Of a DNA stretch of 64,000 nt, positions 24,067-39,801 are shown in pieces. Source of the DNA: Cyanobacteria bacterium J06642_2 (lineage in GTDB: Bacteria; Cyanobacteriota; Cyanobacteriia; Thermostichales; PCC-7336); NCBI GenBank assembly GCA_039817845.1, contig JBCBVC010000003.1:7067-71066 (forward strand), read 5' to 3'. A model generated the notes under the pieces. It was not told where the DNA came from. It worked only from the letters and a program-made list of their open reading frames with translations, and ran no database searches. How positions within the stretch are numbered: position 1 is the first letter of the stretch; each line of letters starts with the position of its first letter. Made by a program: the position numbers and the translations under genes.

Positions 24067-24783
24067 ATGACGGCGAACAGTCCCGTGCCGCAACTCTCGG
24101 CATTAGAACAGTTAACCATACCGGAGCAGGGTGATTCTGCGGCTAAAGCAGTCATTAAATGTCGCTTGGACTTCATGTTTTGTGCCCTAGAAGCTCTCAG
24201 CGACGATAGCTCGGCGGCGGCCCTCGACGCGGCTAAAGCTTTGGGCGTAGACGGCTGGATTGGCGATCGCGTTGCCTTTTGGCGTCTGCGCAATGCCAAT
24301 CCGCTGCGTCGCAGTGATGGCGGTCGCAAAAAACTCGACATTGACGAAGTCCGCGCCCTCGTGCTGACTATTTGTTTGCTGGCTAAACAGCATCAGGCTG
24401 CTATCCGCGCCACACTCGAACGAGTTGAAGCTGCAACCCATGCAGAGCGCGACCTGTCAGCAGAGCCCCAGGTCGCGGATTACTTAGACGGATTTCACGG
24501 CCAATATCGCGAGCGCATGATTGACGGCGATCTCCTATCCGGCGAAAGCATTTCTGAATTGGCGATCGCATTGCTGGTCGATCTAATGCTGTGTAGCGGT
24601 CGTGAAGGTCCACATCGCTTGTGGCAGGCTTTGCTCGTGCGGCCCGAAATGAACGTTCCTGAAATTGCAACCGCTGCCGATACCGCGACTGGAGCGAGTA
24701 CGGTGACAACAGCAGGAACGGCTGCCTCAACGACTTCTGCCGATATTTCGCCTACGTCTACTGCCGATACGTCACCGTCCTAA
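24067..24783 (+). CDS. Conserved cyanobacterial protein, DUF3038-like
   Basis: 238 aa. LDFMFCALEAL...RVAFWRLRNANPLRR...EVRALVLTICLLA resembles DUF3038 as I remember it. This is unverified. Confidence 0.5.
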   Translation: MTANSPVPQLSALEQLTIPEQGDSAAKAVIKCRLDFMFCALEALSDDSSAAALDAAKALGVDGWIGDRVAFWRLRNANPLRRSDGGRKKLDIDEVRALVLTICLLAKQHQAAIRATLERVEAATHAERDLSAEPQVADYLDGFHGQYRERMIDGDLLSGESISELAIALLVDLMLCSGREGPHRLWQALLVRPEMNVPEIATAADTATGASTVTTAGTAASTTSADISPTSTADTSPS

Positions 24784-24792
24784 CTTCGAGCC

Positions 24793-25866
24793 ATGGCTAG
24801 TACCCCCATTTCCCGTATTTATCAACAGTCCACCTGTACCTTGACAGTGACAGGTCAAACGACTCAGCCTGAGGATTTGAGCGCCATCTCGGGCAATCTC
24901 AATTGTCAACTCGACCTCAAGGACACCCGTGGTTCGCAACAGCTCACCGGCGATTTGGCCCTGCTCCAAGATTTAGCCGCCGTGTTGGAACGCTATGCCC
25001 AATCCCTACTGAGCGGTCAACCCCAAGGGACCTTTAGCGGTACGGTAGCAATACGGCCTTTGGCTTATATCGTCCACCGCATGACCGTACGACAAGGCAC
25101 TGGCATCGGCCAAGCAGACTTAAGCGCCTCGCAGCTCTTCGACCTGACGGAAGCCCTCGCAGAACTGCGCGCGACGGTCCCTCACCTAAATGAGTTGAAG
25201 TTGACGCAGCCTAAATCCTGGTACGCTCAACCGACAGGTATTGCCGCACTGCTGGTGGGTGGCGTGGGCGTTGCTGCCGCGATCGCCGTATTAGCAACAG
25301 GAGGGGGTGAAACCACTCTGCGCCAGCAGGAAAGCAGGGCTGACTCGAACGGCTCTGAGATCGCATTGAGCGAATCAACTCTCCCTGCGGCCCCCGATGC
25401 GCGCCGCGGAACCCTACCAGAGGGGACACCGCAAGGTAGTGACGAGCAGGATGGCGACGTTGCCAGATTGAGCGCCGACAGCGAACTGTCAGATAATGCA
25501 GCCCGTAGTGATACATCACCAGCTCGGCCAGCTGCACCACCAGCTCTCTCAGCTGCTCTAGAAAATCCCGACCAACCAGAAAGACCGAGTGATAGCGATC
25601 GCGGCGAAGCCCTCCGGCAAGAATGGGAAGAAGCTTGGGTTGCTCCCACCGAGTTGGATGTGGATTGGGCTTACACGGTTGTCATCGAACCCGACGGAGC
25701 CATTGTCAGCGCTCTGCCCATAGACGAGGCAGCGGCTGCAGGTAAAGAGCAAACCCCCTTTGCTGAGGTTCCCACCACATCGCCAGCAACACTACCTGCC
25801 GAAGCCCAGATCTTCACCGTTACCTTTAGCCCTGACGGTAGCGTCACCACAGCTGCAGCAGAATAA
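24793..25866 (+). CDS. Conserved cyanobacterial protein, DUF4335-like, with low-complexity acidic/Pro-rich C-terminal half
   Basis: 357 aa. It has the N-terminal STCTLTVTGQ motif and one TM-like segment, IAALLVGGVGVAAAIAVLA. The family assignment is from memory only. Confidence 0.5.
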   Translation: MASTPISRIYQQSTCTLTVTGQTTQPEDLSAISGNLNCQLDLKDTRGSQQLTGDLALLQDLAAVLERYAQSLLSGQPQGTFSGTVAIRPLAYIVHRMTVRQGTGIGQADLSASQLFDLTEALAELRATVPHLNELKLTQPKSWYAQPTGIAALLVGGVGVAAAIAVLATGGGETTLRQQESRADSNGSEIALSESTLPAAPDARRGTLPEGTPQGSDEQDGDVARLSADSELSDNAARSDTSPARPAAPPALSAALENPDQPERPSDSDRGEALRQEWEEAWVAPTELDVDWAYTVVIEPDGAIVSALPIDEAAAAGKEQTPFAEVPTTSPATLPAEAQIFTVTFSPDGSVTTAAAE

Positions 25867-25911
25867 CCTGGGAAATATTGAGTACGCTGCGCCAGCGAGG
25901 ACCGGAGTTTC

Positions 25912-26238
25912 ATGCACGCTTTGTCATTACCGACCTGGTTCATCCATATTGCTAGCGTAGTCGAGTGGATCGCAGCCATCGCTCTGATATGGCAGTTTGG
26001 TCGCGATCTTCCGCAGTGGCGCTGGTTGGCATGGGGGATGCTACCCGCATTGGTCGGAGCAATGTCGGCATTGACGTGGCACTTTTTTGATAATGCTCCA
26101 GCACTGGAATGGATTGTGACAGTGCAAGCCAGCATGACGCTGATTGGCAACTGTACGATGGCGATCGCAGCCTATCTCATTTGGTCGAAGAGCGTCAGCT
26201 CCACTCAGCCTGACGAGGGAGGGGGCAAGCGTGGCTAA
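25912..26238 (+). CDS. DUF2499 (Ycf49-like) membrane protein
   Basis: 108 aa. PTWFIHIASVVEWIAAI and MLPALVGAMSALTWHFFDN match Ycf49-type proteins. Confidence 0.65.
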   Translation: MHALSLPTWFIHIASVVEWIAAIALIWQFGRDLPQWRWLAWGMLPALVGAMSALTWHFFDNAPALEWIVTVQASMTLIGNCTMAIAAYLIWSKSVSSTQPDEGGGKRG

Positions 26239-26545
26239 TTTATTTGCCTTATCGCTCTTCCCCTACTTAATTTTTTTGGGCTTTTTGACGCGCACGCCTG
26301 AAACCCCCCGTTTGGCGTTAGTTGGGTTCTACTTGCTGCTGCTATTCGTCGTCATCACCATCCCTGCCGGACTATACGCACAGACGCACTACCACACCTC
26401 ACTAGCCAACGTGGATTGGCTGCACGGCAGCGCTGAAGCCTTTTTGACGCTCTCCAATGTCGTTGTCGTGTTGGGATTTAAGCAAGCTCTGATGCGTCGA
26501 GAGGCCGAAGAACCTGATAATCGAACTGAGTTCGACTTAGGCTGA
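26231..26545 (+). CDS. DUF3593 membrane protein
   Basis: Track ORF 26144..26545. I prefer the GTG at 26231 (VANLFALSLFPYL...). It overlaps the upstream stop by 8 nt (GTGGCTAA). TSLANVDWLHGSAE matches DUF3593. Confidence 0.6.
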   Translation: MANLFALSLFPYLIFLGFLTRTPETPRLALVGFYLLLLFVVITIPAGLYAQTHYHTSLANVDWLHGSAEAFLTLSNVVVVLGFKQALMRREAEEPDNRTEFDLG

Positions 26546-27319: not shown

Positions 27320-27673
27320 CTATTTCGCAAGACGCTGTGAAAGTAACTGCTCCTCAAGTGCAGCAATGCGGTTATAAGCAGCCGTCAGTTGGGCAGTCAA
27401 ACGTTGTACCTGAGCCTCAGGAGCCATTTCTTGTCCAGCAGTCATGCGGGAACTAGAATCAGCTGCTAGACCCTCGTCAATCAGAATATCGCGAATGTCG
27501 TCTTCAATTTGACCGTAATTGAGTGCGTGAGACTTAACAGGTGCAAGTGCTTCCACCTGAGGAATGCGATTAGACACTTCGGCTGCCACTAGGGAGGGCA
27601 ATCGCTCCACAGCTAGCCTGAGCGTCTCAATCTGATGATGTAGCTCTTGGACTTGCTCTTTTAAGGCTTCCAT
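27320..27673 (-). CDS. Hypothetical coiled-coil protein
   Basis: 117 aa. Heptad-like N- and C-terminal segments (EQVQELHHQIETLRLAVERL; RLTAQLTAAYNRIAALEEQLL). No family recognised. Confidence 0.5.
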   Translation of the reverse strand: MEALKEQVQELHHQIETLRLAVERLPSLVAAEVSNRIPQVEALAPVKSHALNYGQIEDDIRDILIDEGLAADSSSRMTAGQEMAPEAQVQRLTAQLTAAYNRIAALEEQLLSQRLAK

Positions 27674-28626: not shown

Positions 28627-29268
28627 ATGCTGGTGAGCAGTAACTCGAAGAAAAATACAGCGACAGACGGTCTCGGGAATCTCAGCCAAATTCGCGATAT
28701 TCTGTTTGGCCAGCAAATGCGCGAGTTTGGCGATCGCTTCGCGCGAATCGAGGCAGATTTAGCCCAAGGGCGGCAAGACATGTTGGAGCGTATCGAGCAG
28801 GTTCGCGAGTCCATGGCATTAGAGCTGCGAGCGGCCACAGATGCAACCGACAAAAAGTTCAACTCCCTCAGCGTAGAAACGCGCGAAGCGCGGGCCGACT
28901 TGGAGCAAGAGCTCTATCGCTCTCGCGATAAGCTCTCCAACACGCTGGCAGTACTGGACGAAGCTCTCGACCGACAAACGTCTTCCATCCGCACCGATTT
29001 ATTGCGGGGGCAAGAGCGCCTCCAGGATGATATTCGAGAACTAAAAGCCAATATTGTCAGTCAGCTCGAAGACTATGTTGCGAACTTACAAGATGCCAAA
29101 GTGTCGCGGGATGCCATGGCCGAGCTATTGTTCGAGATGGGAGTGCGGTTGAAAGGCTTAGATGTGGTCCCTGAGTTGCAGGCGGCCAATCTAACCGATG
29201 CTCTGGTGCAGGAGCTCGCCCAGGAAGCTACAGATGCTAGCGAGAATTCAACTGCGCCAGTGGATTGA
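28627..29268 (+). CDS. Coiled-coil protein, first gene of the GTPase-associated locus
   Basis: 213 aa and almost entirely heptad-like. The N-terminal motif IRDILFGQQMREFGDRF is echoed in the next gene. Confidence 0.6.
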   Translation: MLVSSNSKKNTATDGLGNLSQIRDILFGQQMREFGDRFARIEADLAQGRQDMLERIEQVRESMALELRAATDATDKKFNSLSVETREARADLEQELYRSRDKLSNTLAVLDEALDRQTSSIRTDLLRGQERLQDDIRELKANIVSQLEDYVANLQDAKVSRDAMAELLFEMGVRLKGLDVVPELQAANLTDALVQELAQEATDASENSTAPVD

Positions 29269-29460
29269 GATCGAGTATGTATCGCGTCTCGATGACACTA
29301 TTCGCCTTACTTAGGCAACTTTCGTCAGACTTCGATTACAATCGCTCAACAATATCCAAGTTCGCTCGCTTAATGCGGATTTGAGTCTCACACTTAAATT
29401 AGCGCAGCTTGAATTGGCAACACCTAGCGGGTTGCAGCACGTGCAGCCACGATCTGGCCT

Positions 29461-31461
29461 ATGTCTTCCTCCTCTTACGATGCAATTGAACGCGAAGTTT
29501 TGAAGGCACGACAGCACGGTGCTAGTGTTGACGCCAATCGATCTTTAACACCTTCAGAGTCATCTGATGATGCGGTAGAACATCTGCGCGATTTGCTCCT
29601 GGAGCCGCGTTTGTTTCAAATGCGCCAGCAAGGCCAGGCGCTGGAACGTCAACTGAACGACATCGAGCATCAAATCGCAGACCCCGATCGGCACAATGAG
29701 TGGGTGAGATCGGTATTGACTAGCGCGTTATCGAGCGAGGCTCGCTATTCAGCAGAGGCACTAGCCCAAGCCATTGCTCCCATCGTTGCCGAGGCTCTCT
29801 CCGAACGCATCGGCCAGTCCCCGGAAGAATTGGGGCGTGCGATCGCGCCAGAGATGGCAACCGCGCTGCGGGAGCAGGTTCGTCTCGAACCCGATGCTAT
29901 TGCCAACGCGATCGCTCCAGAAATGGGCAAAGCGATTAAAGACCAAATTGTTATGGAACGCGACGCCATGGTGGACGCGCTCTATCCCGTGATCGGTAGC
30001 ACCATCGCCAAATACTTGGCGGCGACCTTAGAAAATATCAACCGCAAGCTGGAAGAAGCCCTCAGCGTGGAGGGAGTGAAGCGTAAAATTCGGGCGCGCC
30101 TTCAGGGAATTTCAGAAGCTGAGCTACTGTTGCGCGAGTCAGTGCCGTTTTTCGTCCAAAACGTATTTTTAATTCACAAAAACTCGGGATTGGTAATTGC
30201 CGAAGCTCAACAGGCTGAAGGACCGATGTTGGAATCGGACATGATCGCTGGCATGCTGACCGCCATCCGCAGCTTTGTCAATGAATATATCGCCCAGTCC
30301 GGCGATATGTCGGAGCTAGACGATATCAAATACGGCAACTCAGAGGTCATGTTGGAAGTGGCTGGGTACTGTTATCTAGCTGTCGTCGTGCAAGGGCAAC
30401 CACCGCAAGCATTTGCTCGAGATGTGAGCCGGACGCTCAGTCGCATCATTCAGACCTACGGGGATGCAATCGAAGCTTTTACCGGCGATCTTGACGAGGT
30501 TCCTAGCGATGTCAAGGCATCACTAGACCAGCTTTGCGATCGCTACACTCCTGCTCTCAACGAACCTGAATCCTTGCCGGTGCAGCGAGGCCGTTCTGCT
30601 CTAACTATCGGGGTCACAGCACTGGCGATCGTGCTTTTATTGTGGGGAACTGGCAGTTGGCTCAGTCATCGCCTCGAAATGGCAGCCGAACGCGCTCTAT
30701 TTAGCAATCCCGAGTTATCGGTGTATCGCCTCGAAGCCGACGCTCAACGAGGCTTATTTCATCCTCACGGTACGCTGACGCTGACGGGTCGCGTACCCGA
30801 TGCTTACCTACAGCAGAAAGCCGCAAGTGTAGCGAGCACAGTTGTTTCCGCTCGGGCTCGTATTGCTAATGAAATCTTAGCTGTCGAAACGCCAACCAAT
30901 CCGGTGCTTACTGCTGCTGAGGTCGAGCGCGTTACGGCCGTCCTCAATCGTCAAGATAGCGTCGATATTTCGACAACGTTAGATGCTGGACGAGTCACTG
31001 CACGCGGCACGGTGGAAAAAGTTGCAGACGCTGATGCGATCGCCGCAACCCTAGCCGCAATTCCAGGGGTGCGATCCGTAACTAACGTAACGATGTTGAC
31101 GCCCCTAACCCTACCAACGCGGATTTACTTTAAGGCGAATTCAGCTCAGATACCTACCACCTTACTCAACAGCAAGCTCGAACCCGTGCGGGCATTTTTG
31201 GAGCAATATCCTGACACTCGCCTGCGCATTATCGGCCACAGTGACACCAGTGGGGTGCCACAAACGAACCAATTGCTAGCCTTACGGCGCGCTCAAACAG
31301 TTAAATATGCACTAGAGCTAATCGGAATCGAGCCTACTCGTTTAGAGGTAGTTGGTATTGGCGAGCCGCCCCGTGGTGTCGACACTAGCCAGCCCAATTG
31401 GCTGAGTCGGTGCGTTCGGTTCGAACCATTACGGCCGTTACGCGCTCCGCAATTGCACTAG
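29461..31461 (+). CDS. Membrane protein: cytoplasmic repeats + Roadblock/LC7-like domain, one TM helix, two BON-like modules, OmpA/MotB-type peptidoglycan-binding domain
   Basis: 666 aa. aa 226-340 show an alternating Roadblock-like pattern. The TM helix is at aa 379-401 (ALTIGVTALAIVLLLWGTGSWL). The OmpA signature is RIIGHSDTSGVPQTNQLLALRRAQTV. Confidence 0.75.
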   Translation: MSSSSYDAIEREVLKARQHGASVDANRSLTPSESSDDAVEHLRDLLLEPRLFQMRQQGQALERQLNDIEHQIADPDRHNEWVRSVLTSALSSEARYSAEALAQAIAPIVAEALSERIGQSPEELGRAIAPEMATALREQVRLEPDAIANAIAPEMGKAIKDQIVMERDAMVDALYPVIGSTIAKYLAATLENINRKLEEALSVEGVKRKIRARLQGISEAELLLRESVPFFVQNVFLIHKNSGLVIAEAQQAEGPMLESDMIAGMLTAIRSFVNEYIAQSGDMSELDDIKYGNSEVMLEVAGYCYLAVVVQGQPPQAFARDVSRTLSRIIQTYGDAIEAFTGDLDEVPSDVKASLDQLCDRYTPALNEPESLPVQRGRSALTIGVTALAIVLLLWGTGSWLSHRLEMAAERALFSNPELSVYRLEADAQRGLFHPHGTLTLTGRVPDAYLQQKAASVASTVVSARARIANEILAVETPTNPVLTAAEVERVTAVLNRQDSVDISTTLDAGRVTARGTVEKVADADAIAATLAAIPGVRSVTNVTMLTPLTLPTRIYFKANSAQIPTTLLNSKLEPVRAFLEQYPDTRLRIIGHSDTSGVPQTNQLLALRRAQTVKYALELIGIEPTRLEVVGIGEPPRGVDTSQPNWLSRCVRFEPLRPLRAPQLH

Positions 31462-31491
31462 CTCAATACTGTCACTCTGATCTGGATTCGC

Positions 31492-32013
31492 GTGAAGCTG
31501 GTCTCTAAAAAAATTTGCCTGATTGGCGATTACGGCGTGGGCAAGACCAGTCTGATTCGTCGCTTTGTCGAACGTCAATTCAGCGATCAGTATCTATCTA
31601 CAGTGGGAGTTAAAATCTCTCGTAAAACTTTGCAAATACCTGGTTCTGAAGCGAGCAGCGATCGCGAACTAAAACTGTTGATTTGGGATTTAGAAGGTCG
31701 ACAGAAATTTAAAGCTATCTCGCCTCAATATCTACAGGGAGCTAGCGGTGCCATTGTCGTAGCCGACGTCACGCGAGTAGAAACTCTTGCTAGTCTTGTC
31801 GGCCACATTCGCATGTTTTTAACTGTCAATTCAACCGGAACAATAGCAATTGCTTATAACAAAGTAGACCTAATAGATGAAAGCCAAGCTGCTGATTGTT
31901 TAAATCGGGTTCATCTCGATGGTTTAGGAAAAACTATCCCTGTCTATTTAAGTTCAGCCAAAACAGGACTTAATGTCGATACAATCTTCGCACAGCTGGG
32001 CGAGCGACTGTGA
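31492..32013 (+). CDS. Ras/Rab-like small GTPase
   Basis: 173 aa with a GTG start 30 nt after the upstream stop. The G boxes are G1 GDYGVGKTS, G2 YLSTVGV, G3 WDLEGRQ, G4 NKVD and G5 SAK. Confidence 0.85.
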   Translation: MKLVSKKICLIGDYGVGKTSLIRRFVERQFSDQYLSTVGVKISRKTLQIPGSEASSDRELKLLIWDLEGRQKFKAISPQYLQGASGAIVVADVTRVETLASLVGHIRMFLTVNSTGTIAIAYNKVDLIDESQAADCLNRVHLDGLGKTIPVYLSSAKTGLNVDTIFAQLGERL

Positions 32014-32303
32014 AACGCGAACGTCTCTACATGAATTATTATGAACTATTCCGATTCTCCCCGCATGATTGGCAGAATTGTTAGCAAATACTAAACTTCC
32101 CATGGCAGATGTCAGCTTCGTCTCCTTCCCGAGTTTTTTACTTTCACCGATTATCTTAGATTGTAGGTAGAGTCAGGAAAATATGTGACACATAAGGGCT
32201 TAGATTGCCCTATTTTTGTCACGTTGTAAAAACTGATTTCCCGTTGAATTAAGAGTTTTATTCGATACGCTATCGAATACATCTTGTGTGTTGATTGGCG
32301 TGA

Positions 32304-33065
32304 TTGATGCGAGGTTTTGCCATGATTAAGTTGTTTTTGACGACTGGTGCTGTTCTAGGTGCAGTTGTTTTTTCTCAGGTTTGGGTTTTGGCTCAGGAAG
32401 AGCTCCCAGGCACTGCTCCTATCGATTCTGTTGAGATTGACGATCCTGCCTCTGAGATGTTGGAATCGGGGCCAGTAGAGGCTGTCGACCCGACGCTTGA
32501 AGATACAGGTTCCGCGTTGGAAGCAGCCGACCCAGTGGTCGAGGAAACAGCTCCTGCTTTGGAAGCAGCCGATCCATTAGTTGAGGACGCCGATCCCGCT
32601 CTGGAGGCAGCCGATCCTGCTGTTGAGTGGGAAGATCCTCCTCTGGAGGCTGTAGACGTTGAAGCGGAAGGCTCGGGAGCCACTGTCGAGGTGAGTGACG
32701 CACAGCTGGAGCAGGTTGCTGGCACATTGTCGAAGCTACAGGTTGTTGAAGAAGATACGAAGGCTCAGATTACGGAGGCAATCGCGGGTCAAGGATTGAC
32801 CGAAGAACGGTTTATGGAAATCTCTACCGCGAAGCAGGCTGCTCCTGATGCTGAAGTTCAGGCTGAGGTTTCTCCAGTTGAGGATCAGCAGTACGAACAA
32901 GCCTTGGCAGAAATAGAGACGATCGATTCGGCTGCCTTACAACAGCAGGAAGAAATCATTCAAGCTGAAGGCTTCGATATCGAAGAGTTTAACCAGATGT
33001 TAGGCACAATTCAGAGCGATCCAGAACTGTACGAGAAAGTGCGAAATATGACATCGGACAGCTAA
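32304..33065 (+). CDS. Secreted acidic protein with tandem repeats and DUF4168-like C-terminal domain
   Basis: 253 aa. The signal peptide is MIKLFLTTGAVLGAVVFSQVWVLAQ, so the start is probably the ATG at 32307 or 32322. The C-terminus EEIIQAEGFDIEEFNQMLGTIQSDPELYEKV resembles DUF4168. Confidence 0.6.
   Translation: MMRGFAMIKLFLTTGAVLGAVVFSQVWVLAQEELPGTAPIDSVEIDDPASEMLESGPVEAVDPTLEDTGSALEAADPVVEETAPALEAADPLVEDADPALEAADPAVEWEDPPLEAVDVEAEGSGATVEVSDAQLEQVAGTLSKLQVVEEDTKAQITEAIAGQGLTEERFMEISTAKQAAPDAEVQAEVSPVEDQQYEQALAEIETIDSAALQQQEEIIQAEGFDIEEFNQMLGTIQSDPELYEKVRNMTSDS
32475..32657 (+). repeat. About 42-nt tandem coding repeat (ALEAADPxVEExxP units)
   Basis: Three full units run from 32514 (ALEAADPVVEETAP / ALEAADPLVEDADP / ALEAADPAVEWEDPP), with degenerate flanking units on each side. 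Confidence 0.8.
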
Positions 33066-36799: not shown

Positions 36800-38359
36800 G
36801 TGACATGGCTTCATACACTGATGGAGAGGGTAAGTCGTAAGTTGGCAGTTTTGCCGCTCAAGTGCGCTATGAGCAGTCGGTTTTACACTTCTTTGGCCGC
36901 AGTTCTCTGGGCTGATTCGCCCGCTCCAGAATGGTTGTCTGGAGCCGGGCGATTGGCATGGCAACGTGCAGTAGCAGCACTTTATCAACTGTGGTGGGAT
37001 ACAGGTGCCGAGGGGGTCGAAATTGTTGGAGCTGAAGGCGGCTGGTTAGCTCCCGTTCGGCATCCCCGAGCACACGATCGAGAAACAGTCGAGGTCGATG
37101 CCCCTGACTTGCAATCGTCCGACAAACACAATCAGACCGCTGGCACGATTGAGATTGAGACGCTGCAGACAACTGCCTCAGCTCCACAATGGCTCTTTAC
37201 GTCCGATTTGTCCGCTCCGACTCTGGCACCGCCGGATCGCGTCGTTATTCCTTTACTATCGCGCGATCCTCTTCTCACAGAGTCATTTATTATCATCCGA
37301 ACGTCTGAGTTCGCTGCAATTGTTGCTCGGGTAGATCGACCCGATACTGAACGGCCTGGGGTTGCTTATTCTTTCGAGCCAGAACTCATTCAGCGGGTGT
37401 GGCAGGGGTTGCTGGTGCGCCTGCAGCAGGTTCGCCCCGACTGTGTTGAACGATGGCACGACCTCGATCGCCGTTTCCCTTTAGTAGAACCGTCATATCG
37501 CCTACTCTCTCGATTTAGCAGTTGGGTGATGATGGCGGCTCAGTCTGCCTGGGCGCGGCAAGAAGGCGCAGCTGCAACTCCGCCGCAGACCTTGTTGCCC
37601 GCTTCAGCTTCTTCCGAGCGGCGATCGCCAAAAGTGGTCATCACTGCGCCTGAAGACACTACCGATACGTTGTCCGAAACAGATTTACTGAAAGCCATTG
37701 CTCACGAAGTGCGCACGCCGTTGGCAACCATTCAAACCTTAACGCGACTGATTTTGCGTCGTTCCGATATTCCTGCACCCGTGCGGCGATATCTAGAAGG
37801 TATCGAGCGAGAATGTAAAGAGCAAAGCGAGCGCTTTGGCTTATTTTTCCGAGCCACAGAGTTCAGTCCCGATCGCGTTCACCTGCAAACCACATCACTG
37901 ACCGAACTGTTGGAGCAGAAGTTGCCACTTTGGAAGCAACAGGTAGAACGACGTGGGTCTACGCTGGAGCTGAAGGCACCGGCGGACGTACCGACTGTCG
38001 TGAGCGATCCGGCCACCCTGGATGCAGTATTGTCAGGCGTGATCGATCGCGTCGCTCGCGGTGTGCCGGCCGGCAGCCACGTTAAGGCTGAGGTCGTCAC
38101 GGCTGGAGAGCAGGTGAAACTGCAGTTCCGCATTATCAACCCTGAAGGCAAATCATCACACCTCTGCGGAGACGCGTCACCTACCCAATCATTGGGCCAA
38201 CTTTTGGCCTTTCAGCCAGATACTGGAGCGCTGAGTTTAAGTATTCCGATGACGCAAACGCTATTTCGGGCTCTAGGAGGTTACTTCACTGTTCGCCAGC
38301 AAGCCCAACGCGGTGAGACGCTGACTATCTTTTTACCGCGTCAACCGCACACGTCTTAG
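36800..38359 (+). CDS. Histidine kinase-like protein with intact H-box but degenerate ATP-binding domain
   Basis: 519 aa. The H-box is LLKAIAHEVRTPLATI. The positions of the N, G1 and G2 boxes read VIDRVARGVP, INPEGK and TGALSLSI. The start is uncertain, with the ATG at 36869 as an alternative. Confidence 0.7.
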   Translation: MTWLHTLMERVSRKLAVLPLKCAMSSRFYTSLAAVLWADSPAPEWLSGAGRLAWQRAVAALYQLWWDTGAEGVEIVGAEGGWLAPVRHPRAHDRETVEVDAPDLQSSDKHNQTAGTIEIETLQTTASAPQWLFTSDLSAPTLAPPDRVVIPLLSRDPLLTESFIIIRTSEFAAIVARVDRPDTERPGVAYSFEPELIQRVWQGLLVRLQQVRPDCVERWHDLDRRFPLVEPSYRLLSRFSSWVMMAAQSAWARQEGAAATPPQTLLPASASSERRSPKVVITAPEDTTDTLSETDLLKAIAHEVRTPLATIQTLTRLILRRSDIPAPVRRYLEGIERECKEQSERFGLFFRATEFSPDRVHLQTTSLTELLEQKLPLWKQQVERRGSTLELKAPADVPTVVSDPATLDAVLSGVIDRVARGVPAGSHVKAEVVTAGEQVKLQFRIINPEGKSSHLCGDASPTQSLGQLLAFQPDTGALSLSIPMTQTLFRALGGYFTVRQQAQRGETLTIFLPRQPHTS

Positions 38360-38381
38360 CTACATATCGCTACCAGCTACT

Positions 38382-39122
38382 ATGCCCGAATCGCGTTCCA
38401 CTACCGAGCAGCCAAGTGTCGAGCCAACCGATCCGCTCGACACGCTGCTCCACCAACTTCGCAATCCCCTAACGGCGATGACAACCCTAGCTAAGCTGTG
38501 GCAAAAGCGAACTGAGCCAGACGATCCTAATGCCTGGATTGCCGATCGCATTGAGCAAGAATGCCAACACGTGCGTGTATTGCTGGAACAGTTCGAGCGC
38601 CAGACTCTAGGTAGCGATCTTCAGGCTAGTCTCCCAGTTGAGGTGAACCTGTACGAGTTCATTCAACAGCTCTGGCCGACCTATGCTGCGCTTGCCAGCC
38701 AGCGTCACATCAACCTGAAGCAGCATTTACCTGCAAATATCCCCACCTTGCAACTCGATCCGGCCAAGTTGCGAGAAGTATTGGACAACTTGCTCGACAA
38801 CGCGCTGAAATACACTCCAACTGGTGGCGCGATTGCGGTCACTTTAGCAGCAGAAACAGAAGCAGTGGAGATTGCCATTAGCGATTCCGGTCCCGGTATT
38901 GCGGCGATGGATTTACCACTTATTTTCGAGCCGCACTATCGCGGTGATATGGGCGAGCGTGGTCCAGCAGGTAGCGGTTTGGGCCTGGCGATCGCCAGAG
39001 AATTGACAACTCAGATGGGTGGTAGCATCGAAGTGAGCAGCCAGCCGGGACGAGGCACGACCTTTACCGTACGGCTCCCGGTCCCTAAATCTTTGCATCA
39101 TGAGTCACGTCCTATTAGTTGA
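38382..39122 (+). CDS. Small soluble sensor histidine kinase (DHp + canonical HATPase only)
   Basis: 246 aa. The boxes are H-box LLHQLRNPLTAM, N box LLDNALKYTP, G1 SDSGPGI and G2 GSGLGLAIA. Confidence 0.85.
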   Translation: MPESRSTTEQPSVEPTDPLDTLLHQLRNPLTAMTTLAKLWQKRTEPDDPNAWIADRIEQECQHVRVLLEQFERQTLGSDLQASLPVEVNLYEFIQQLWPTYAALASQRHINLKQHLPANIPTLQLDPAKLREVLDNLLDNALKYTPTGGAIAVTLAAETEAVEIAISDSGPGIAAMDLPLIFEPHYRGDMGERGPAGSGLGLAIARELTTQMGGSIEVSSQPGRGTTFTVRLPVPKSLHHESRPIS

Positions 39123-39801
39123 TGACGAACCCGGTTTGAGAGAGGCCGTACAGGCTTATCTCGAAGACAGCGGGTTGACGGTGTCGGCGGCGGCAAATGT
39201 ACCGTCAGCCATGCAGCATCTGCAGAGACAAAAGCCCGATTTAATCGTCTCCGATATCATGATGCCGCAGGTGGACGGCTATCAGTTTTTGGAGCAGGTC
39301 CGTCAAGAAGATGCCTATCGTCACATTCCGTTCGTGTTCTTGACGGCCAAAGGCATGACGGGCGATCGCATCCAGGGCTACGATGCTGGCGTAGATGCCT
39401 ATTTGCCCAAGCCGTTCGACCCAGACGAGCTGGTGGCGATCGTCAAAAACTTGCTCAATCGAGCGACCAACGCTCCCGATACAGCCACCGTCGCCCGCGA
39501 GCTCGCTGAAATTAAAGCCTTGCTACAAGAACGTGCCGAAGCCCCCGCTACGAACTCAGCTGCGACCGCTCCATCCTTCACCCCCGAACCGCCTCCCATT
39601 CGCGTACAGCTAACTCCGCGCGAGAAAGAAGTGCTGGAGTTGGTATCCGAAGGATTGATGAATAAAGAAATTGCCAAACAGCTTGAAACCAGCATTCGCA
39701 ATATCGAAAAATACGTCACCCGCTTGCTGAATAAGACGGGAACGAGCAGCCGCACTGAACTGGTTCGTTTTGCCATCACTTATGGTTTAGTTCAGTTATA
39801 G
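39100..39801 (+). CDS. NarL/LuxR-type response regulator (Ycf29/Rre1-like)
   Basis: 233 aa. The receiver is LLVDDEP...DLIVSDIMMPQVDGY...LTAKG, and the C-terminal HTH is LTPREKEVLELVSEGLMNKEIAKQL. The start overlaps the upstream kinase by 23 nt. Confidence 0.9.
   Translation: MSHVLLVDDEPGLREAVQAYLEDSGLTVSAAANVPSAMQHLQRQKPDLIVSDIMMPQVDGYQFLEQVRQEDAYRHIPFVFLTAKGMTGDRIQGYDAGVDAYLPKPFDPDELVAIVKNLLNRATNAPDTATVARELAEIKALLQERAEAPATNSAATAPSFTPEPPPIRVQLTPREKEVLELVSEGLMNKEIAKQLETSIRNIEKYVTRLLNKTGTSSRTELVRFAITYGLVQL

What the first reader, a model, noticed from the sequence alone, without database searches (positions are those of the whole stretch)
28627..32013. Ras-like GTPase apparently operonic with a transmembrane Roadblock-BON-BON-OmpA protein and a coiled-coil partner
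Three co-directional genes make up the locus. The first (28627..29268) encodes a 213-aa protein that is almost pure coiled coil. The second (29461..31461) encodes 666 aa. The third (31492..32013) starts 30 nt later and encodes a 173-aa small GTPase with all five G boxes. Reading the 666-aa protein: aa 97-187 are four AIAPE-type repeats. aa 226-340 (VQNVFLIHKNSGLVIAEAQ...DMIAGMLTAIRSFV...SEVMLEVAGYCYLAVVVQG) have the strand/helix alternation of a Roadblock/LC7 (MglB-like) domain. aa 379-401 form one TM helix with Arg residues on the N-terminal side. aa 415-546 are two BON-like modules, and aa 552-650 are an OmpA/MotB peptidoglycan-binding domain. Roadblock proteins are the established partners of prokaryotic Ras-superfamily GTPases (MglA/MglB, actinobacterial conservons), but there they are small soluble proteins. 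Here the putative GTPase-regulator domain is fused across the inner membrane to a cell-wall anchor. That would tether a cytoplasmic GTP switch to a fixed point on the sacculus, like a stator or a spatial landmark. I cannot assign this architecture to a described system.
Basis: partly seen in the sequence, partly recalled or inferred. Interest (0 to 1): 0.8.

Follow-up and report, generated by a model that had tools for sequence, protein, structure and literature searches.

The report
Wall-anchored Ras-like GTPase signalling module
This is a real, widely conserved three-gene bacterial module (helical protein, cell-wall-anchored membrane protein, Ras-like GTPase) that was catalogued by genome comparison in 2014 as a "Group 1 Rup" system but never studied experimentally; what is added here is that the membrane protein's unnamed cytoplasmic domain has the Roadblock/longin fold typical of small-GTPase regulators.

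Summary
Three co-directional genes encode a 213-aa amphipathic-helical protein, a 666-aa bitopic membrane protein and a 173-aa Ras-like GTPase. The 666-aa protein has helical 23-aa repeats, an α/β domain, one TM helix, two BON modules and an OmpA domain. The GTPase has all five G boxes but no catalytic Gln. The GTPase sits next to the OmpA gene in 80 of 80 related genomes, and the helical protein in 76 of 80.

AlphaFold2 plus Foldseek places aa ~219-361 in the Roadblock/longin fold (Mon1-Ccz1, Ykt6, MglB, Rag C-terminal domains). No sequence model detects this.

The architecture is not undescribed. Wuichet & Søgaard-Andersen (2014) tabulated exactly "DUFY>DUFX:OmpA>Rup>" as the Group 1 Rup neighbourhood, in cyanobacteria and other phyla, usually followed by a fourth signalling-output gene. 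That fourth gene (N-domain, PAS, then kinase or cyclase) is present in 75 of 80 related loci but absent from this window.

Most likely this is an envelope-linked GTPase signalling module, not a stator. No MotA/ExbB partner is present and the TM helix has no Asp.

Novelty is modest: a new member of a known but uncharacterised kind, plus a fold assignment for "DUFX" that I did not find in the literature.

The parts
28627..29268 (+). Gene for the 213-aa cytoplasmic amphipathic-helical (coiled-coil-like) protein, 'DUFY' of the Group 1 Rup neighbourhood. Its family motifs are LGNIDQIRDIIFGxQLREY (N-terminal) and KVSxDDMAExLFELGMRLKG (C-terminal).
   Evidence: ORF. Only sub-threshold coiled-coil Pfam hits. 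Found upstream of the OmpA gene in 76 of 80 loci. Family consensus. Helical periodicity z = 3.0. The Mesorhizobium counterpart hits the family HMM at 2.4e-19.
29461..31461 (+). Gene for the 666-aa bitopic inner-membrane protein, 'DUFX:OmpA'.
   Evidence: ORF. More than 1,500 homologues, all annotated only as 'OmpA family protein'. Full-length AlphaFold2 model with pLDDT 75.
29746..30021 (+). Four 23-residue helical repeats (aa 96-187, xxxxhxxAIAPxhxxAhxxQhxh). Copy number varies among homologues.
   Evidence: Self-score 128 at offset 23, against a shuffle maximum of 33. Repeat-sized indels in alignment A1. Helical in the model.
30115..30543 (+). Roadblock/longin-fold domain (aa 219-361). Together with the preceding helix (aa ~150-218) it is the most conserved part of the protein and the core of 'DUFX'.
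   Evidence: AlphaFold2 of aa 196-372: pLDDT 82.5, pTM 0.73. Foldseek against PDB: Mon1-Ccz1 1e-4, Ykt6 longin, AP sigma subunits, MglB 5.6e-4, RagA/C, Asgard Roadblock. Invariant residues. No Pfam or PDB sequence hit.
30595..30663 (+). Single transmembrane helix (aa 379-401), N-in/C-out.
   Evidence: Kyte-Doolittle 1.98. Positive-inside bias across 121 homologues. Helix 381-415 in the model.
30733..31098 (+). Two periplasmic BON modules (aa 425-474 and 481-546).
   Evidence: Pfam BON 7.5e-9 in two stretches. NCBIfam ArfA_OmpATb_N at aa 437-540. Two α/β modules in the model.
31111..31431 (+). OmpA/MotB-type peptidoglycan-binding domain (aa 551-657). Arg610 is invariant.
   Evidence: Pfam OmpA 1.9e-12. 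NCBIfam YiaD/Pal/YfiB-type hits. Invariant R610 and G592.
31492..32013 (+). Gene for the 173-aa Ras-superfamily GTPase of the Group 1 Rup (Rup1) type. G1-G5 are intact. Tyr14 is at the Ras-G12 position and Arg70 at the Ras-Q61 position.
   Evidence: Pfam Ras/Roc. Best PDB sequence matches are Rab22A, Ypt7, Rab1 and Rab5. Motif conservation over 80 orthologues. Orthologues are annotated 'Rab family GTPase' by NCBI.
32195..32211 (+). Terminator-like hairpin followed by a T-run, downstream of the GTPase gene. It is the possible end of the transcription unit.
   Evidence: Consensus scan. This is weak evidence, because the number of such sites does not exceed the shuffle expectation.

Best explanation
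The locus is a cyanobacterial member of the 'Group 1 Rup' (Rup1) small-GTPase system.

Shown:
- The 666-aa protein is an inner-membrane protein.
- Its C-terminal BON-BON-OmpA part matches periplasmic peptidoglycan-binding modules.
- Its N-terminal half is cytoplasmic and carries a Roadblock/longin-fold domain.
- The Ras-like GTPase and a helical protein are co-conserved with it across cyanobacteria and in an alphaproteobacterium.

Inferred mechanism:
- The Roadblock/longin-fold domain probably acts as a dimer held together by the long N-terminal helices. It is the docking and regulatory platform for the Rup GTPase at the membrane.
- The periplasmic domain ties this platform to the sacculus. 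The state of the cell wall or envelope could then be relayed through the single TM helix.
- The GTPase has no catalytic Gln, and it has a bulky Phe/Tyr where an arginine finger would enter. Its intrinsic and Ras-GAP-type hydrolysis should therefore be poor. The switch must be driven by exchange or sequestration on the platform, in the way longin/Roadblock GEF platforms work, or by a catalytic residue supplied in trans.
- GTP-bound Rup then acts on effectors. In most genomes the effectors are encoded immediately downstream, as proteins with a shared N-terminal domain, a PAS domain, and a histidine kinase, hybrid kinase or nucleotidyl cyclase output.
- In this window that output gene is missing in cis, so the effector here is unknown or is encoded elsewhere.
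- The helical protein is a scaffold or adaptor. It may pair with the N-terminal helix of the membrane protein through a shared motif.
For: - Identity of the system: the gene order and domain content match PMC4316618 text and Table S2, 'DUFY>DUFX:OmpA>Rup>'. The defining lack of the G3 Gln holds for the window and for 80 of 80 orthologues.
- Cross-phylum conservation: a Mesorhizobium plasmid carries hypothetical > OmpA family > Rab family GTPase > adenylate/guanylate cyclase. Its GTPase is 38% identical (8e-35), its DUFX core matches at 7e-28, and its DUFY hits the family HMM at 2.4e-19.
- Co-conservation in cyanobacteria: 80 of 80 and 76 of 80 loci.
- Fold. The DUFX core is the most conserved region of the protein. 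The domain family has 4,587 representatives at 50% clustering.
- Topology.
- Signalling outputs adjacent in 75 of 80 loci, with HisKA/HATPase, REC-Hpt or Guanylate_cyc domains.
- Established knowledge: Roadblock/longin domains serve as GAP, GEF or platform for small GTPases (MglB, Ragulator, Mon1-Ccz1, TRAPP, DENN). Ras G12 and Q61 substitutions abolish GAP-stimulated hydrolysis.
Against: - No sequence-level homology to Roadblock or longin families. There is no Robl_LC7 hit, and Fuz_longin_1 appears only at E = 0.021 in 2 of 34 members.
- Foldseek TM-scores are moderate (0.4-0.6) and cannot separate Roadblock from longin, or homology from convergence.
- No physical interaction was predicted or measured.
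- The fourth gene, on which the signalling reading leans, is absent from this 64-kb window.
- The published hypothesis puts the trans-acting Gln in that fourth protein, not in DUFX.
- No experimental data on any member were found.
Confidence: 0.6

Rival explanations
1. Spatial landmark or stator. The peptidoglycan-anchored protein fixes a GTPase switch at a defined point of the sacculus, to organise a motility, polarity or division machine. This would work like MglA/MglB polarity modules or MotB-type stators rather than as a signalling relay.
For: - An OmpA/MotB-type anchor on a bitopic inner-membrane protein.
- Roadblock-fold partners of MglA control polarity (fold hits to MglB).
- A filament-like helical protein is co-encoded.
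- Many of the carriers seen here are gliding filamentous cyanobacteria.
- This window itself has no signalling output gene in cis.
Against: - No MotA/ExbB/TolQ-like partner among the neighbours, and no conserved fourth gene of that type in 80 loci.
- The TM helix (SALTIGVTALAIVLLLWGTGSW) has no acidic residue, which MotB/TolR/ExbD-type stators need.
- The conserved downstream genes are kinases and cyclases.
- The system also occurs in unicellular cyanobacteria, rhizobia, Alteromonas and Nitrospira.
- The GTPase is not of the MglA type, because the G3 Asp is present.
Confidence: 0.15
2. Inside-out control of the envelope. The GTPase is the input and the OmpA/BON protein is the effector. The nucleotide state of Rup would change the oligomeric state of the membrane protein, and with it peptidoglycan or outer-membrane tethering, for example during stress, desiccation or differentiation.
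For: - BON domains are associated with osmotic and envelope stress proteins (NCBIfam hits to OsmY-like PRK11023 and ArfA/OmpATb).
- The three-gene core is conserved even where the output genes differ or are absent.
- The PAS-containing neighbours could be sensors acting upstream of the GTPase.
Against: - In Bacteroidetes and Chloroflexi, DUFX lacks the OmpA domain yet stays coupled to Rup and DUFY. The conserved function therefore lies in the cytoplasmic core, not in the wall-binding part.
- There is no precedent for a small GTPase regulating an OmpA-type anchor.
Confidence: 0.12
3. The Roadblock/longin-like fold is only a dimerisation or scaffold module, or a convergent α/β sandwich. On this view the direct partner and regulator of the GTPase is the helical protein or the N-terminal domain of the output proteins, as proposed in 2014 (invariant Gln supplied in trans).
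For: - No sequence homology to Roadblock or longin and moderate TM-scores.
- PMC4316618 assigns the putative catalytic Gln to the fourth protein.
- The consensus of that N-domain contains conserved Gln residues ('TerMvleQsL.Q').
Against: - All 50 listed Foldseek hits belong to the longin/Roadblock class, most of them from GTPase-regulator complexes.
- The domain is the most conserved part of the protein, and helix α2 is nearly invariant. This argues for a conserved binding surface rather than a mere spacer.
- This window and Table S2 show the three-gene core persisting without the fourth gene.
Confidence: 0.13

Closest known systems
Group 1 Rup (Rup1) GTPase neighbourhood, Wuichet & Søgaard-Andersen 2014 (PMC4316618)
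   Same: - Same gene order and content: coiled-coil DUFY, then DUFX-TM-OmpA, then a small Ras-like GTPase lacking the G3 Gln.
- Cyanobacterial examples are listed (Ava_0879, Npun_F1891, cce_4705, AM1_2998).
- A Mesorhizobium example is homologous to the window's three proteins.
   Different: - The window lacks the 'highly conserved' fourth signalling-output gene in cis.
[quoted passage not shown] Here the DUFX core is assigned a Roadblock/longin fold.
- In cyanobacteria the outputs are kinases and class III cyclases, not the GGDEF/EAL proteins emphasised there.
MglA/MglB polarity module (Myxococcus, Thermus)
   Same: A small Ras-superfamily GTPase is encoded next to a protein with the αββαβββ Roadblock fold. 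MglB structures are among the best fold matches (3t12, 1j3w, 6h5b).
   Different: - The GTPase is not MglA-type: it keeps the G3 Asp and lacks the Gln that MglB repositions.
- The fold-bearing protein is a 666-aa membrane and wall-anchored protein, not a ~16-kDa soluble dimer.
- There is no Robl_LC7 sequence signal.
Actinobacterial conservon (CvnA-D; MfpA-E)
   Same: A multi-gene signalling cassette that combines a small GTPase, a Roadblock-fold protein, a membrane component and a histidine kinase. The analogy was already drawn in PMC4316618.
   Different: - In the conservon the kinase is the membrane component and the Roadblock protein is soluble. Here the Roadblock-fold protein is the membrane component, and the kinases or cyclases, where present, are soluble PAS proteins.
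- There is no DUF742/CvnC equivalent.
- The GTPase belongs to a different family (Rup rather than MglA Group 2).
Eukaryotic longin/Roadblock GTPase platforms (Mon1-Ccz1, TRAPP, Ragulator-Rag, DENN)
   Same: - The best structural match is the Mon1-Ccz1 longin heterodimer bound to Ypt7 (5ldd).
- The GTPase's best sequence matches in PDB are Rab22, Ypt7/Rab7, Rab1 and Rab5.
- There is a faint Fuz_longin_1 hit.
- These platforms act at membranes.
   Different: Similarity is at the fold level only (11-18% identity, TM 0.4-0.6). No exchange activity has been shown. Membrane attachment here is by an integral TM helix plus a peptidoglycan anchor, which has no eukaryotic counterpart.
ArfA/OmpATb (Rv0899) and YiaD/Pal-type BON/OmpA envelope proteins
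   Same: The periplasmic half (TM, then BON, then OmpA-like peptidoglycan-binding domain) follows this layout. NCBIfam hits: ArfA_OmpATb_N, YiaD, Pal, YfiB.
   Different: Those proteins have no large cytoplasmic domain and no linked GTPase. All NCBIfam scores are far below the equivalog cutoffs.

Membership tests
Group 1 Rup (Rup1) GTPase system | Small (<240 aa) single-domain Ras-superfamily GTPase with eukaryote-like G1-G5 motifs, including the G3 Asp | tested here: met
   173 aa. Ras 5e-26. G1-G5 read directly and invariant in 80 orthologues, D66 present.
Group 1 Rup (Rup1) GTPase system | Absence of the catalytic Gln in G3 (DxxGQ) | tested here: met
   The window has DLEGR. Across 80 sequences the position is H48/S27/N3/R1, with no Gln among the residues tallied. 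The Mesorhizobium member has DLAGE.
Group 1 Rup (Rup1) GTPase system | Adjacent gene for a cytoplasmic coiled-coil protein (DUFY) | tested here: met
   The 213-aa gene lies upstream. It is present in 76 of 80 loci. Helical periodicity. Homologous to the Mesorhizobium DUFY, 2.4e-19.
Group 1 Rup (Rup1) GTPase system | Adjacent gene for a protein with a conserved unknown domain (DUFX), often followed by a TM helix and an OmpA domain | tested here: met
   The DUFX core matches the Mesorhizobium protein at 7e-28. Table S2 lists 'DUFX:OmpA' in cyanobacteria.
Group 1 Rup (Rup1) GTPase system | Fourth adjacent gene: a signalling output (kinase or cyclic-nucleotide enzyme) with a conserved N-terminal domain carrying an invariant Gln | tested here: not met
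   An HMM of that N-domain, built from 103 proteins, finds nothing in the six-frame translation of the whole window. The gene after the GTPase is a DUF4168 protein. The fourth gene is present in 75 of 80 related loci. Table S2 defines the neighbourhood by three genes only, so I do not treat this as excluding membership.
Roadblock/LC7 (Pfam PF03259; MglB-like) | Significant match to the Robl_LC7 sequence profile or to Roadblock proteins of known structure | tested here: not met
   No hit at E <= 1 for the full protein. None at E <= 10 for 34 family members. The profile search of PDB sequences gave only noise.
Roadblock/LC7 (Pfam PF03259; MglB-like) | α-β-β-α-β-β-β(-α) sandwich fold | tested here: met
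   Secondary-structure order H-E-E-H-E-E-E-H-H in two independent models. Foldseek hits to MglB, LC7 and Asgard Roadblock with probability 1.00 and TMt 0.5-0.64.
Roadblock/LC7 (Pfam PF03259; MglB-like) | Forms dimers and binds or regulates a small GTPase | not testable with these tools
   No multimer prediction was available. The only evidence is genomic coupling.
Longin domain (Mon1/Ccz1/Fuz, SNARE longin, AP sigma) | β-β-α-β-β-β-α-α fold with two C-terminal helices | tested here: inconclusive
   The top Foldseek hits are longin domains (5ldd 1e-4, 3bw6, 2vgl_S), and the model has two C-terminal helices. It also has the N-terminal helix typical of Roadblock, and the TM-scores do not discriminate.
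Longin domain (Mon1/Ccz1/Fuz, SNARE longin, AP sigma) | Sequence match to a longin profile | tested here: inconclusive
   Fuz_longin_1 in 2 of 34 members, best E = 0.021, well below significance.
OmpA/MotB peptidoglycan-binding domain (PF00691) | Profile match above the gathering score, with the conserved Arg of the peptidoglycan-binding site | tested here: met
   47.8 bits against a cutoff of 27.2. R610 is invariant in 18 and in 50 homologues. Actual peptidoglycan binding was not tested.
BON domain (PF04972) | Profile match above the gathering score | tested here: met
   36.2 bits against a cutoff of 27, in two stretches. Two α/β modules in the model.
MglA family GTPases | G3 without the Asp (TxxGQ type), an intrinsic Arg finger, and coupling to an MglB gene | tested here: not met
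   D66 is invariant and there is no G3 Gln. No Robl_LC7 gene in the neighbourhood.
MotB/TolR/ExbD-type stator | A MotA/TolQ/ExbB partner gene and a protonatable Asp in the TM helix | tested here: not met
   No such Pfam family among the neighbours or among the conserved flanking clusters. The TM sequence has no D or E (direct reading).
Known anti-phage defence systems (PADLOC) | Match to a defence-system protein model | tested here: not met
   Only noise-level coiled-coil and P-loop hits, E >= 0.003.

The most novel reading that the evidence does not exclude
Rup1 is the bacterial GTPase group that clusters with eukaryotic Rab/Ras/Rho/Ran. In 2014 it was reported as not coupled to MglB-like proteins. 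On this reading, Rup1 is in fact universally partnered with a divergent Roadblock/longin-fold domain, and that domain is built into a membrane protein that in many phyla is also anchored to peptidoglycan. The GTPase-longin/Roadblock partnership that organises eukaryotic membrane traffic (Mon1-Ccz1, TRAPP, DENN, Ragulator) would then already exist in the Ras-like branch in bacteria, at a membrane. It would also represent a new way of coupling cell-wall state to a GTP switch.
Probability: 0.45. Interest if true: 0.65.

Novelty: new member of a known kind. Interest (0 to 1): 0.45.

Why it matters
Rup1 GTPases are the closest bacterial relatives of eukaryotic Rab/Ras/Rho/Ran. As far as I could find, no member of the system has been characterised experimentally.

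Assigning a Roadblock/longin fold to the conserved partner gives a concrete, testable hypothesis for how the switch is regulated. It revises the published view that Rup GTPases lack Roadblock-type partners. It also extends the Ras-like GTPase plus Roadblock/longin pairing to a membrane- and wall-anchored format.

Both catalytic positions of the GTPase are substituted: the Gln is absent and an aromatic residue sits at the G12 position. This predicts an unusual hydrolysis or exchange mechanism that would be worth measuring.

For annotation, thousands of 'OmpA family protein' entries could be given a more informative description.

Tried and rejected
1. The 519-aa HisKA protein at 36800-38359 as the missing fourth component. 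Rejected: its N-terminal part has no relative in any of the 80 loci, and it is unrelated to the fourth-gene N-domain.
2. Sequence-level homology of aa 196-372 to Roadblock or longin. The PDB profile search gave only noise (TolR 0.54). Pfam at E <= 10 gave no Robl_LC7.
3. A DNA-level tandem repeat underlying the 23-aa repeats. None found.
4. An RNA element, or conserved sequence, in the ~870 nt upstream of the first gene. No Rfam hit, and no conservation with the 70%-identical relative beyond the neighbouring 117-aa gene.
5. A defence-system assignment. None.
6. A shared N-terminal motif between the 213-aa protein (aa 19-54) and the 666-aa protein (aa 39-74). hhalign aligns exactly these segments, but only at P = 0.0023 and probability 12.7%. 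I keep this as a lead, not a finding.
7. The cyanobacterial fourth-gene N-domain HMM against the Mesorhizobium cyclase. No hit, so I could not confirm homology of the output N-domains across phyla.
8. Literature on experimental work. Searches for Rup, Rup1, locus tags, and Roadblock/longin with cyanobacteria returned nothing beyond the 2014 paper and phylogenetic mentions of Rup1.
9. The non-cyanobacterial members of the domain family could not be listed. The representative search shows only its best 150 hits, all of them very strong.

Full report
**1. What is in the sequence**

The three ORFs are exactly as reported:
- 28627-29268 (+), 213 aa
- 29461-31461 (+), 666 aa
- 31492-32013 (+), 173 aa, GTG start

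The gaps between them are 192 nt and 30 nt. No terminator-like site lies between the genes, and one follows the last gene at 32195-32211. The number of such sites in the region does not exceed the shuffle expectation. No Rfam family matches the region.

Pfam assigns BON (two stretches) and OmpA (aa 556-644) to the 666-aa protein, and nothing to its first 400 residues. It assigns Ras/Roc to the 173-aa protein. NCBIfam gives only sub-threshold OmpA-lipoprotein and ArfA/OsmY-type hits to the C-terminal third.

The 213-aa protein gets only sub-threshold coiled-coil-type hits. It is Pro-poor and shows significant amphipathic-helix periodicity: z = 3.0, 4 of 500 shuffles reach the observed value, and the peak is at 3.6 residues.

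The 'AIAPE' repeats are four 23-residue units at aa 96-187. The self-score at offset 23 is 128, against a maximum of 33 in shuffles.

The only strongly hydrophobic stretch is aa 379-401. Over 121 homologues the 15 residues before it carry a mean net charge of +1.74, against -0.06 after it. There is no N-terminal signal-like segment. The N-terminal 378 residues are therefore cytoplasmic and the BON-BON-OmpA part is periplasmic. This is an inference from the positive-inside rule and from where OmpA domains act.

**2. The GTPase**

All five G boxes are present, and they are invariant in 80 orthologues. Two catalytic positions are unusual.
- The Ras-G12 position is aromatic: Phe in 78 sequences and Tyr in 2, including the window.
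- At the Ras-Q61 position no Gln appears among the residues tallied: His 48, Ser 27, Asn 3, Arg 1 (the window).

The window and its closest relative read DLEGRQ, a lineage-specific variant. The best PDB sequence matches are Rab22A, Ypt7, Rab1 and Rab5, at E about 1e-25 to 1e-19. NCBI annotates orthologues as 'Rab family GTPase'. The G3 Asp is present, so this is not an MglA-type protein.

**3. The cytoplasmic domain**

Alignment of homologues shows that the most conserved part of the 666-aa protein is neither OmpA nor BON. It is aa ~150-345.

I cut aa 196-372 out of 34 non-redundant family members (A2). AlphaFold2 gave a confident model with pLDDT 82.5 and pTM 0.73. The element order is H-H-E-E-H-E-E-E-H-H. 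The same elements appear in the separate full-length model.

Foldseek against the PDB returned 14 hits at E <= 1e-3. All 50 listed hits belong to the longin/Roadblock class:
- Mon1-Ccz1 bound to Ypt7 (1e-4)
- Ykt6 and Sec22b longin domains
- AP and COPI small subunits
- MglB (5.6e-4)
- RagA/C C-terminal domains
- TRAPP subunits
- Asgard and dynein Roadblock proteins

Target-normalised TM-scores are 0.45-0.64.

It is not right at the level of sequence family. There is no Robl_LC7 hit at E <= 1 for the protein or at E <= 10 for any of 34 members. The only related signal is Fuz_longin_1 (the FUZ/MON1/HPS1 longin) at E = 0.021 in 2 members. A profile search of PDB sequences found nothing meaningful.

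I therefore call it a Roadblock/longin-fold domain and do not file it under either family. The domain family is large: 4,587 representatives of 50%-identity clusters at E <= 1e-3, and 2,566 at E <= 1e-10.

**4. Conservation**

More than 1,500 homologues of the 666-aa protein were found. The named ones among the 120 listed are almost all cyanobacterial, and they are annotated only as 'OmpA family' or 'BON domain' proteins. The window's own protein is 99% identical to one from 'Cyanobacteria bacterium P01_D01_bin.123'.

A scan of species-representative genomes found at least 461 genomes with a relative. In the 80 loci fetched:
- the GTPase is adjacent in 80 of 80 (79 on the same strand, directly downstream);
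- the helical protein is upstream in 76 of 80, and the other four loci have too little upstream DNA;
- the window's other neighbours (DUF4168, peptide deformylase, ABC transporter) are not conserved with the module.

Unbiased clustering of all flanking ORFs revealed a fourth conserved gene in 75 of 80 loci. It follows the GTPase directly and often comes as two tandem paralogues. It has a shared N-terminal domain of about 145 aa with no Pfam match, then a PAS domain, then variable outputs: HisKA-HATPase, a hybrid kinase with REC and Hpt, GAF-PAS-nucleotidyl cyclase, or a ~1,780-aa multi-PAS/GAF kinase. Most of the loci without it end at a contig edge.

An HMM of that N-terminal region finds nothing anywhere in the 64-kb window. 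The HisKA protein at 36800-38359 is unrelated. The same arrangement, without the fourth gene, is seen in the NCBI assembly of this organism. The 70%-identical relative has two tandem GTPase genes, and its contig then ends.

**5. Comparison with what is known**

The architecture has been described. Wuichet & Søgaard-Andersen (Genome Biol Evol 2014, PMC4316618) split prokaryotic Ras-superfamily GTPases into MglA and Rup families. They define Group 1 Rup by the missing G3 Gln and by a conserved neighbourhood of:
- a coiled-coil cytoplasmic protein;
- a signalling output protein whose N-terminal region has an invariant Gln.

Their Table S2 lists 'DUFY>DUFX:OmpA>Rup>' for Anabaena variabilis, Nostoc PCC 7120, N. 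punctiforme, Cyanothece 51142 and Acaryochloris. It lists the same for Nitrospira and for several classes of Proteobacteria. OmpA-less DUFX versions appear in Bacteroidetes and Chloroflexi.

I confirmed the cross-phylum link directly. A Mesorhizobium plasmid carries hypothetical > OmpA family protein > Rab family GTPase > adenylate/guanylate cyclase. Against the window's proteins:
- its GTPase is 38% identical (8e-35), with GGFAVGKT and DLAGED;
- its DUFX core matches at 7e-28;
- its first gene hits the helical-protein HMM at 2.4e-19 and carries the same IRDLLFGNQM motif.

The window's locus therefore meets every defining feature of the Group 1 Rup system except the fourth gene in cis.

Later papers mention 'Rup1' only in phylogenies, where it clusters with eukaryotic Rab/Ras/Rho/Ran and Asgard RasL. 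I found no experimental study and no statement that DUFX has a Roadblock/longin fold. The library does not hold most subscription-journal papers, so this absence is not proof. [quoted passage not shown] The fold assignment qualifies that statement.

**6. How it most likely works**

Shown:
- the domain content, the topology signals and the fold;
- co-conservation of the three genes across phyla;
- adjacency to kinase and cyclase genes in most cyanobacteria;
- the substituted catalytic positions of the GTPase.

Inferred:
- The Roadblock/longin-fold domain is the membrane-proximal docking and regulatory platform for Rup. It probably works as a dimer, as such domains usually do, with the long N-terminal helices (aa 36-215 in the model) contributing.
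- The aromatic residue at the G12 position should block an arginine finger, and there is no intrinsic Gln. This rests on established Ras biochemistry. MglB-type repositioning of intrinsic residues cannot be the whole mechanism. Either the platform controls exchange or sequestration, as longin/Roadblock GEF platforms do, or a catalytic residue comes in trans. The source could be the output protein's N-domain, as proposed in 2014, or one of the invariant residues Q215, Q250 or R270 of the membrane protein.
- The periplasmic BON-BON-OmpA part ties the platform to the sacculus and could report envelope state.
- GTP-bound Rup would then modulate PAS-kinase or cyclase outputs. In this organism the effector is not encoded in cis.

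I give this model 0.6.

The stator or landmark reading gets 0.15. There is no MotA/ExbB/TolQ partner, the TM helix has no acidic residue, and the conserved neighbours are signalling enzymes. The system also occurs in organisms with very different motility.

Inside-out control of the envelope gets 0.12. It is weakened by the OmpA-less DUFX versions.

A purely scaffolding or convergent fold gets 0.13.

**7. Verdict**

The Roadblock idea is supported as a fold. The claim that the architecture is undescribed is wrong.

The locus is a new member of a known, computationally defined but experimentally untouched system. It has two small twists: no output gene in cis, and a lineage-specific DLEGRQ G3 motif.

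The added value is the fold assignment for DUFX and the resulting testable mechanism. Interest is moderate (0.45).

Noticed in passing
window 28681-28788 and 29575-29682: The N-terminal segment of the 213-aa protein (aa 19-54, LSQIRDILFGQQMREFGDRFARIEADL...) and a segment of the 666-aa protein (aa 39-74, VEHLRDLLLEPRLFQMRQQGQALERQL...) look alike. hhalign aligns exactly these two segments, but weakly (P = 0.0023, probability 12.7%). The motif is also present in the Mesorhizobium counterpart. It may be a shared interaction or pairing helix.
   Followed up: partly
L081 4812-5564 and 5619-6140: The closest relative of the locus (70% identity, Logan SRR27352961) has two tandem Ras-like GTPase genes after the OmpA gene. 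One is 173 aa, like the window's. The other is 250 aa, with a ~35-residue insertion after switch I and a ~45-residue C-terminal tail. Its G3 motif is DLEGRT.
   Followed up: partly
L001-L080, directly downstream of the GTPase gene (e.g. L001 2823-4385, L003 8854-11637): The fourth-gene family shares an N-terminal domain of about 145 aa with no Pfam match. Its consensus includes FPEL.G.E, LYfD and eD.TerMvleQsL.Q.aNEa, and a PAS domain follows. The domain is fused to at least four different outputs, and two paralogues often sit in tandem. Its fold and its relation to the Mesorhizobium cyclase N-terminus are unresolved.
   Followed up: partly
window 27320-27673 (-): A divergently oriented 117-aa coiled-coil-like protein with no family assignment. 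It is conserved at 79.5% nucleotide identity in the 70% relative (L081 626-1060) but absent from the 80 more distant loci. About 870 nt of non-conserved, ORF-poor sequence lies between it and the module.
   Followed up: partly
window 32304-33065 (+): A DUF4168 protein with an N-terminal signal-like hydrophobic segment and a run of acidic repeats (…DP.LE..…ALEAADP.VE…) before the DUF4168 domain. It takes the place that the signalling-output gene occupies in other genomes.
   Followed up: no
window 36800-39124 (+): The histidine kinase appears to be split. A 496-519-aa protein has a long unassigned N-terminal region and only a HisKA domain. A separate ~246-aa HATPase_c protein follows, and then a REC-GerE response regulator. 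It is not linked to the Rup module in other genomes.
   Followed up: partly
window 24067-26545 (+): A run of cyanobacteria-typical genes of unknown function: DUF3038 (238 aa), DUF4335 (357 aa, with a Pro/Ala/Ser-rich tail), and then the overlapping small membrane proteins DUF2499 and DUF3593.
   Followed up: no
window 29461-29745 versus homologues (alignments A1, A3): The N-terminal region of the family is highly variable in length: 650 to over 1,600 aa in total. The window's protein is among the shortest. It lacks the conserved extreme N-terminal 'L..LL.LL..L.I' segment and several 23-aa repeat copies that most homologues have.
   Followed up: no
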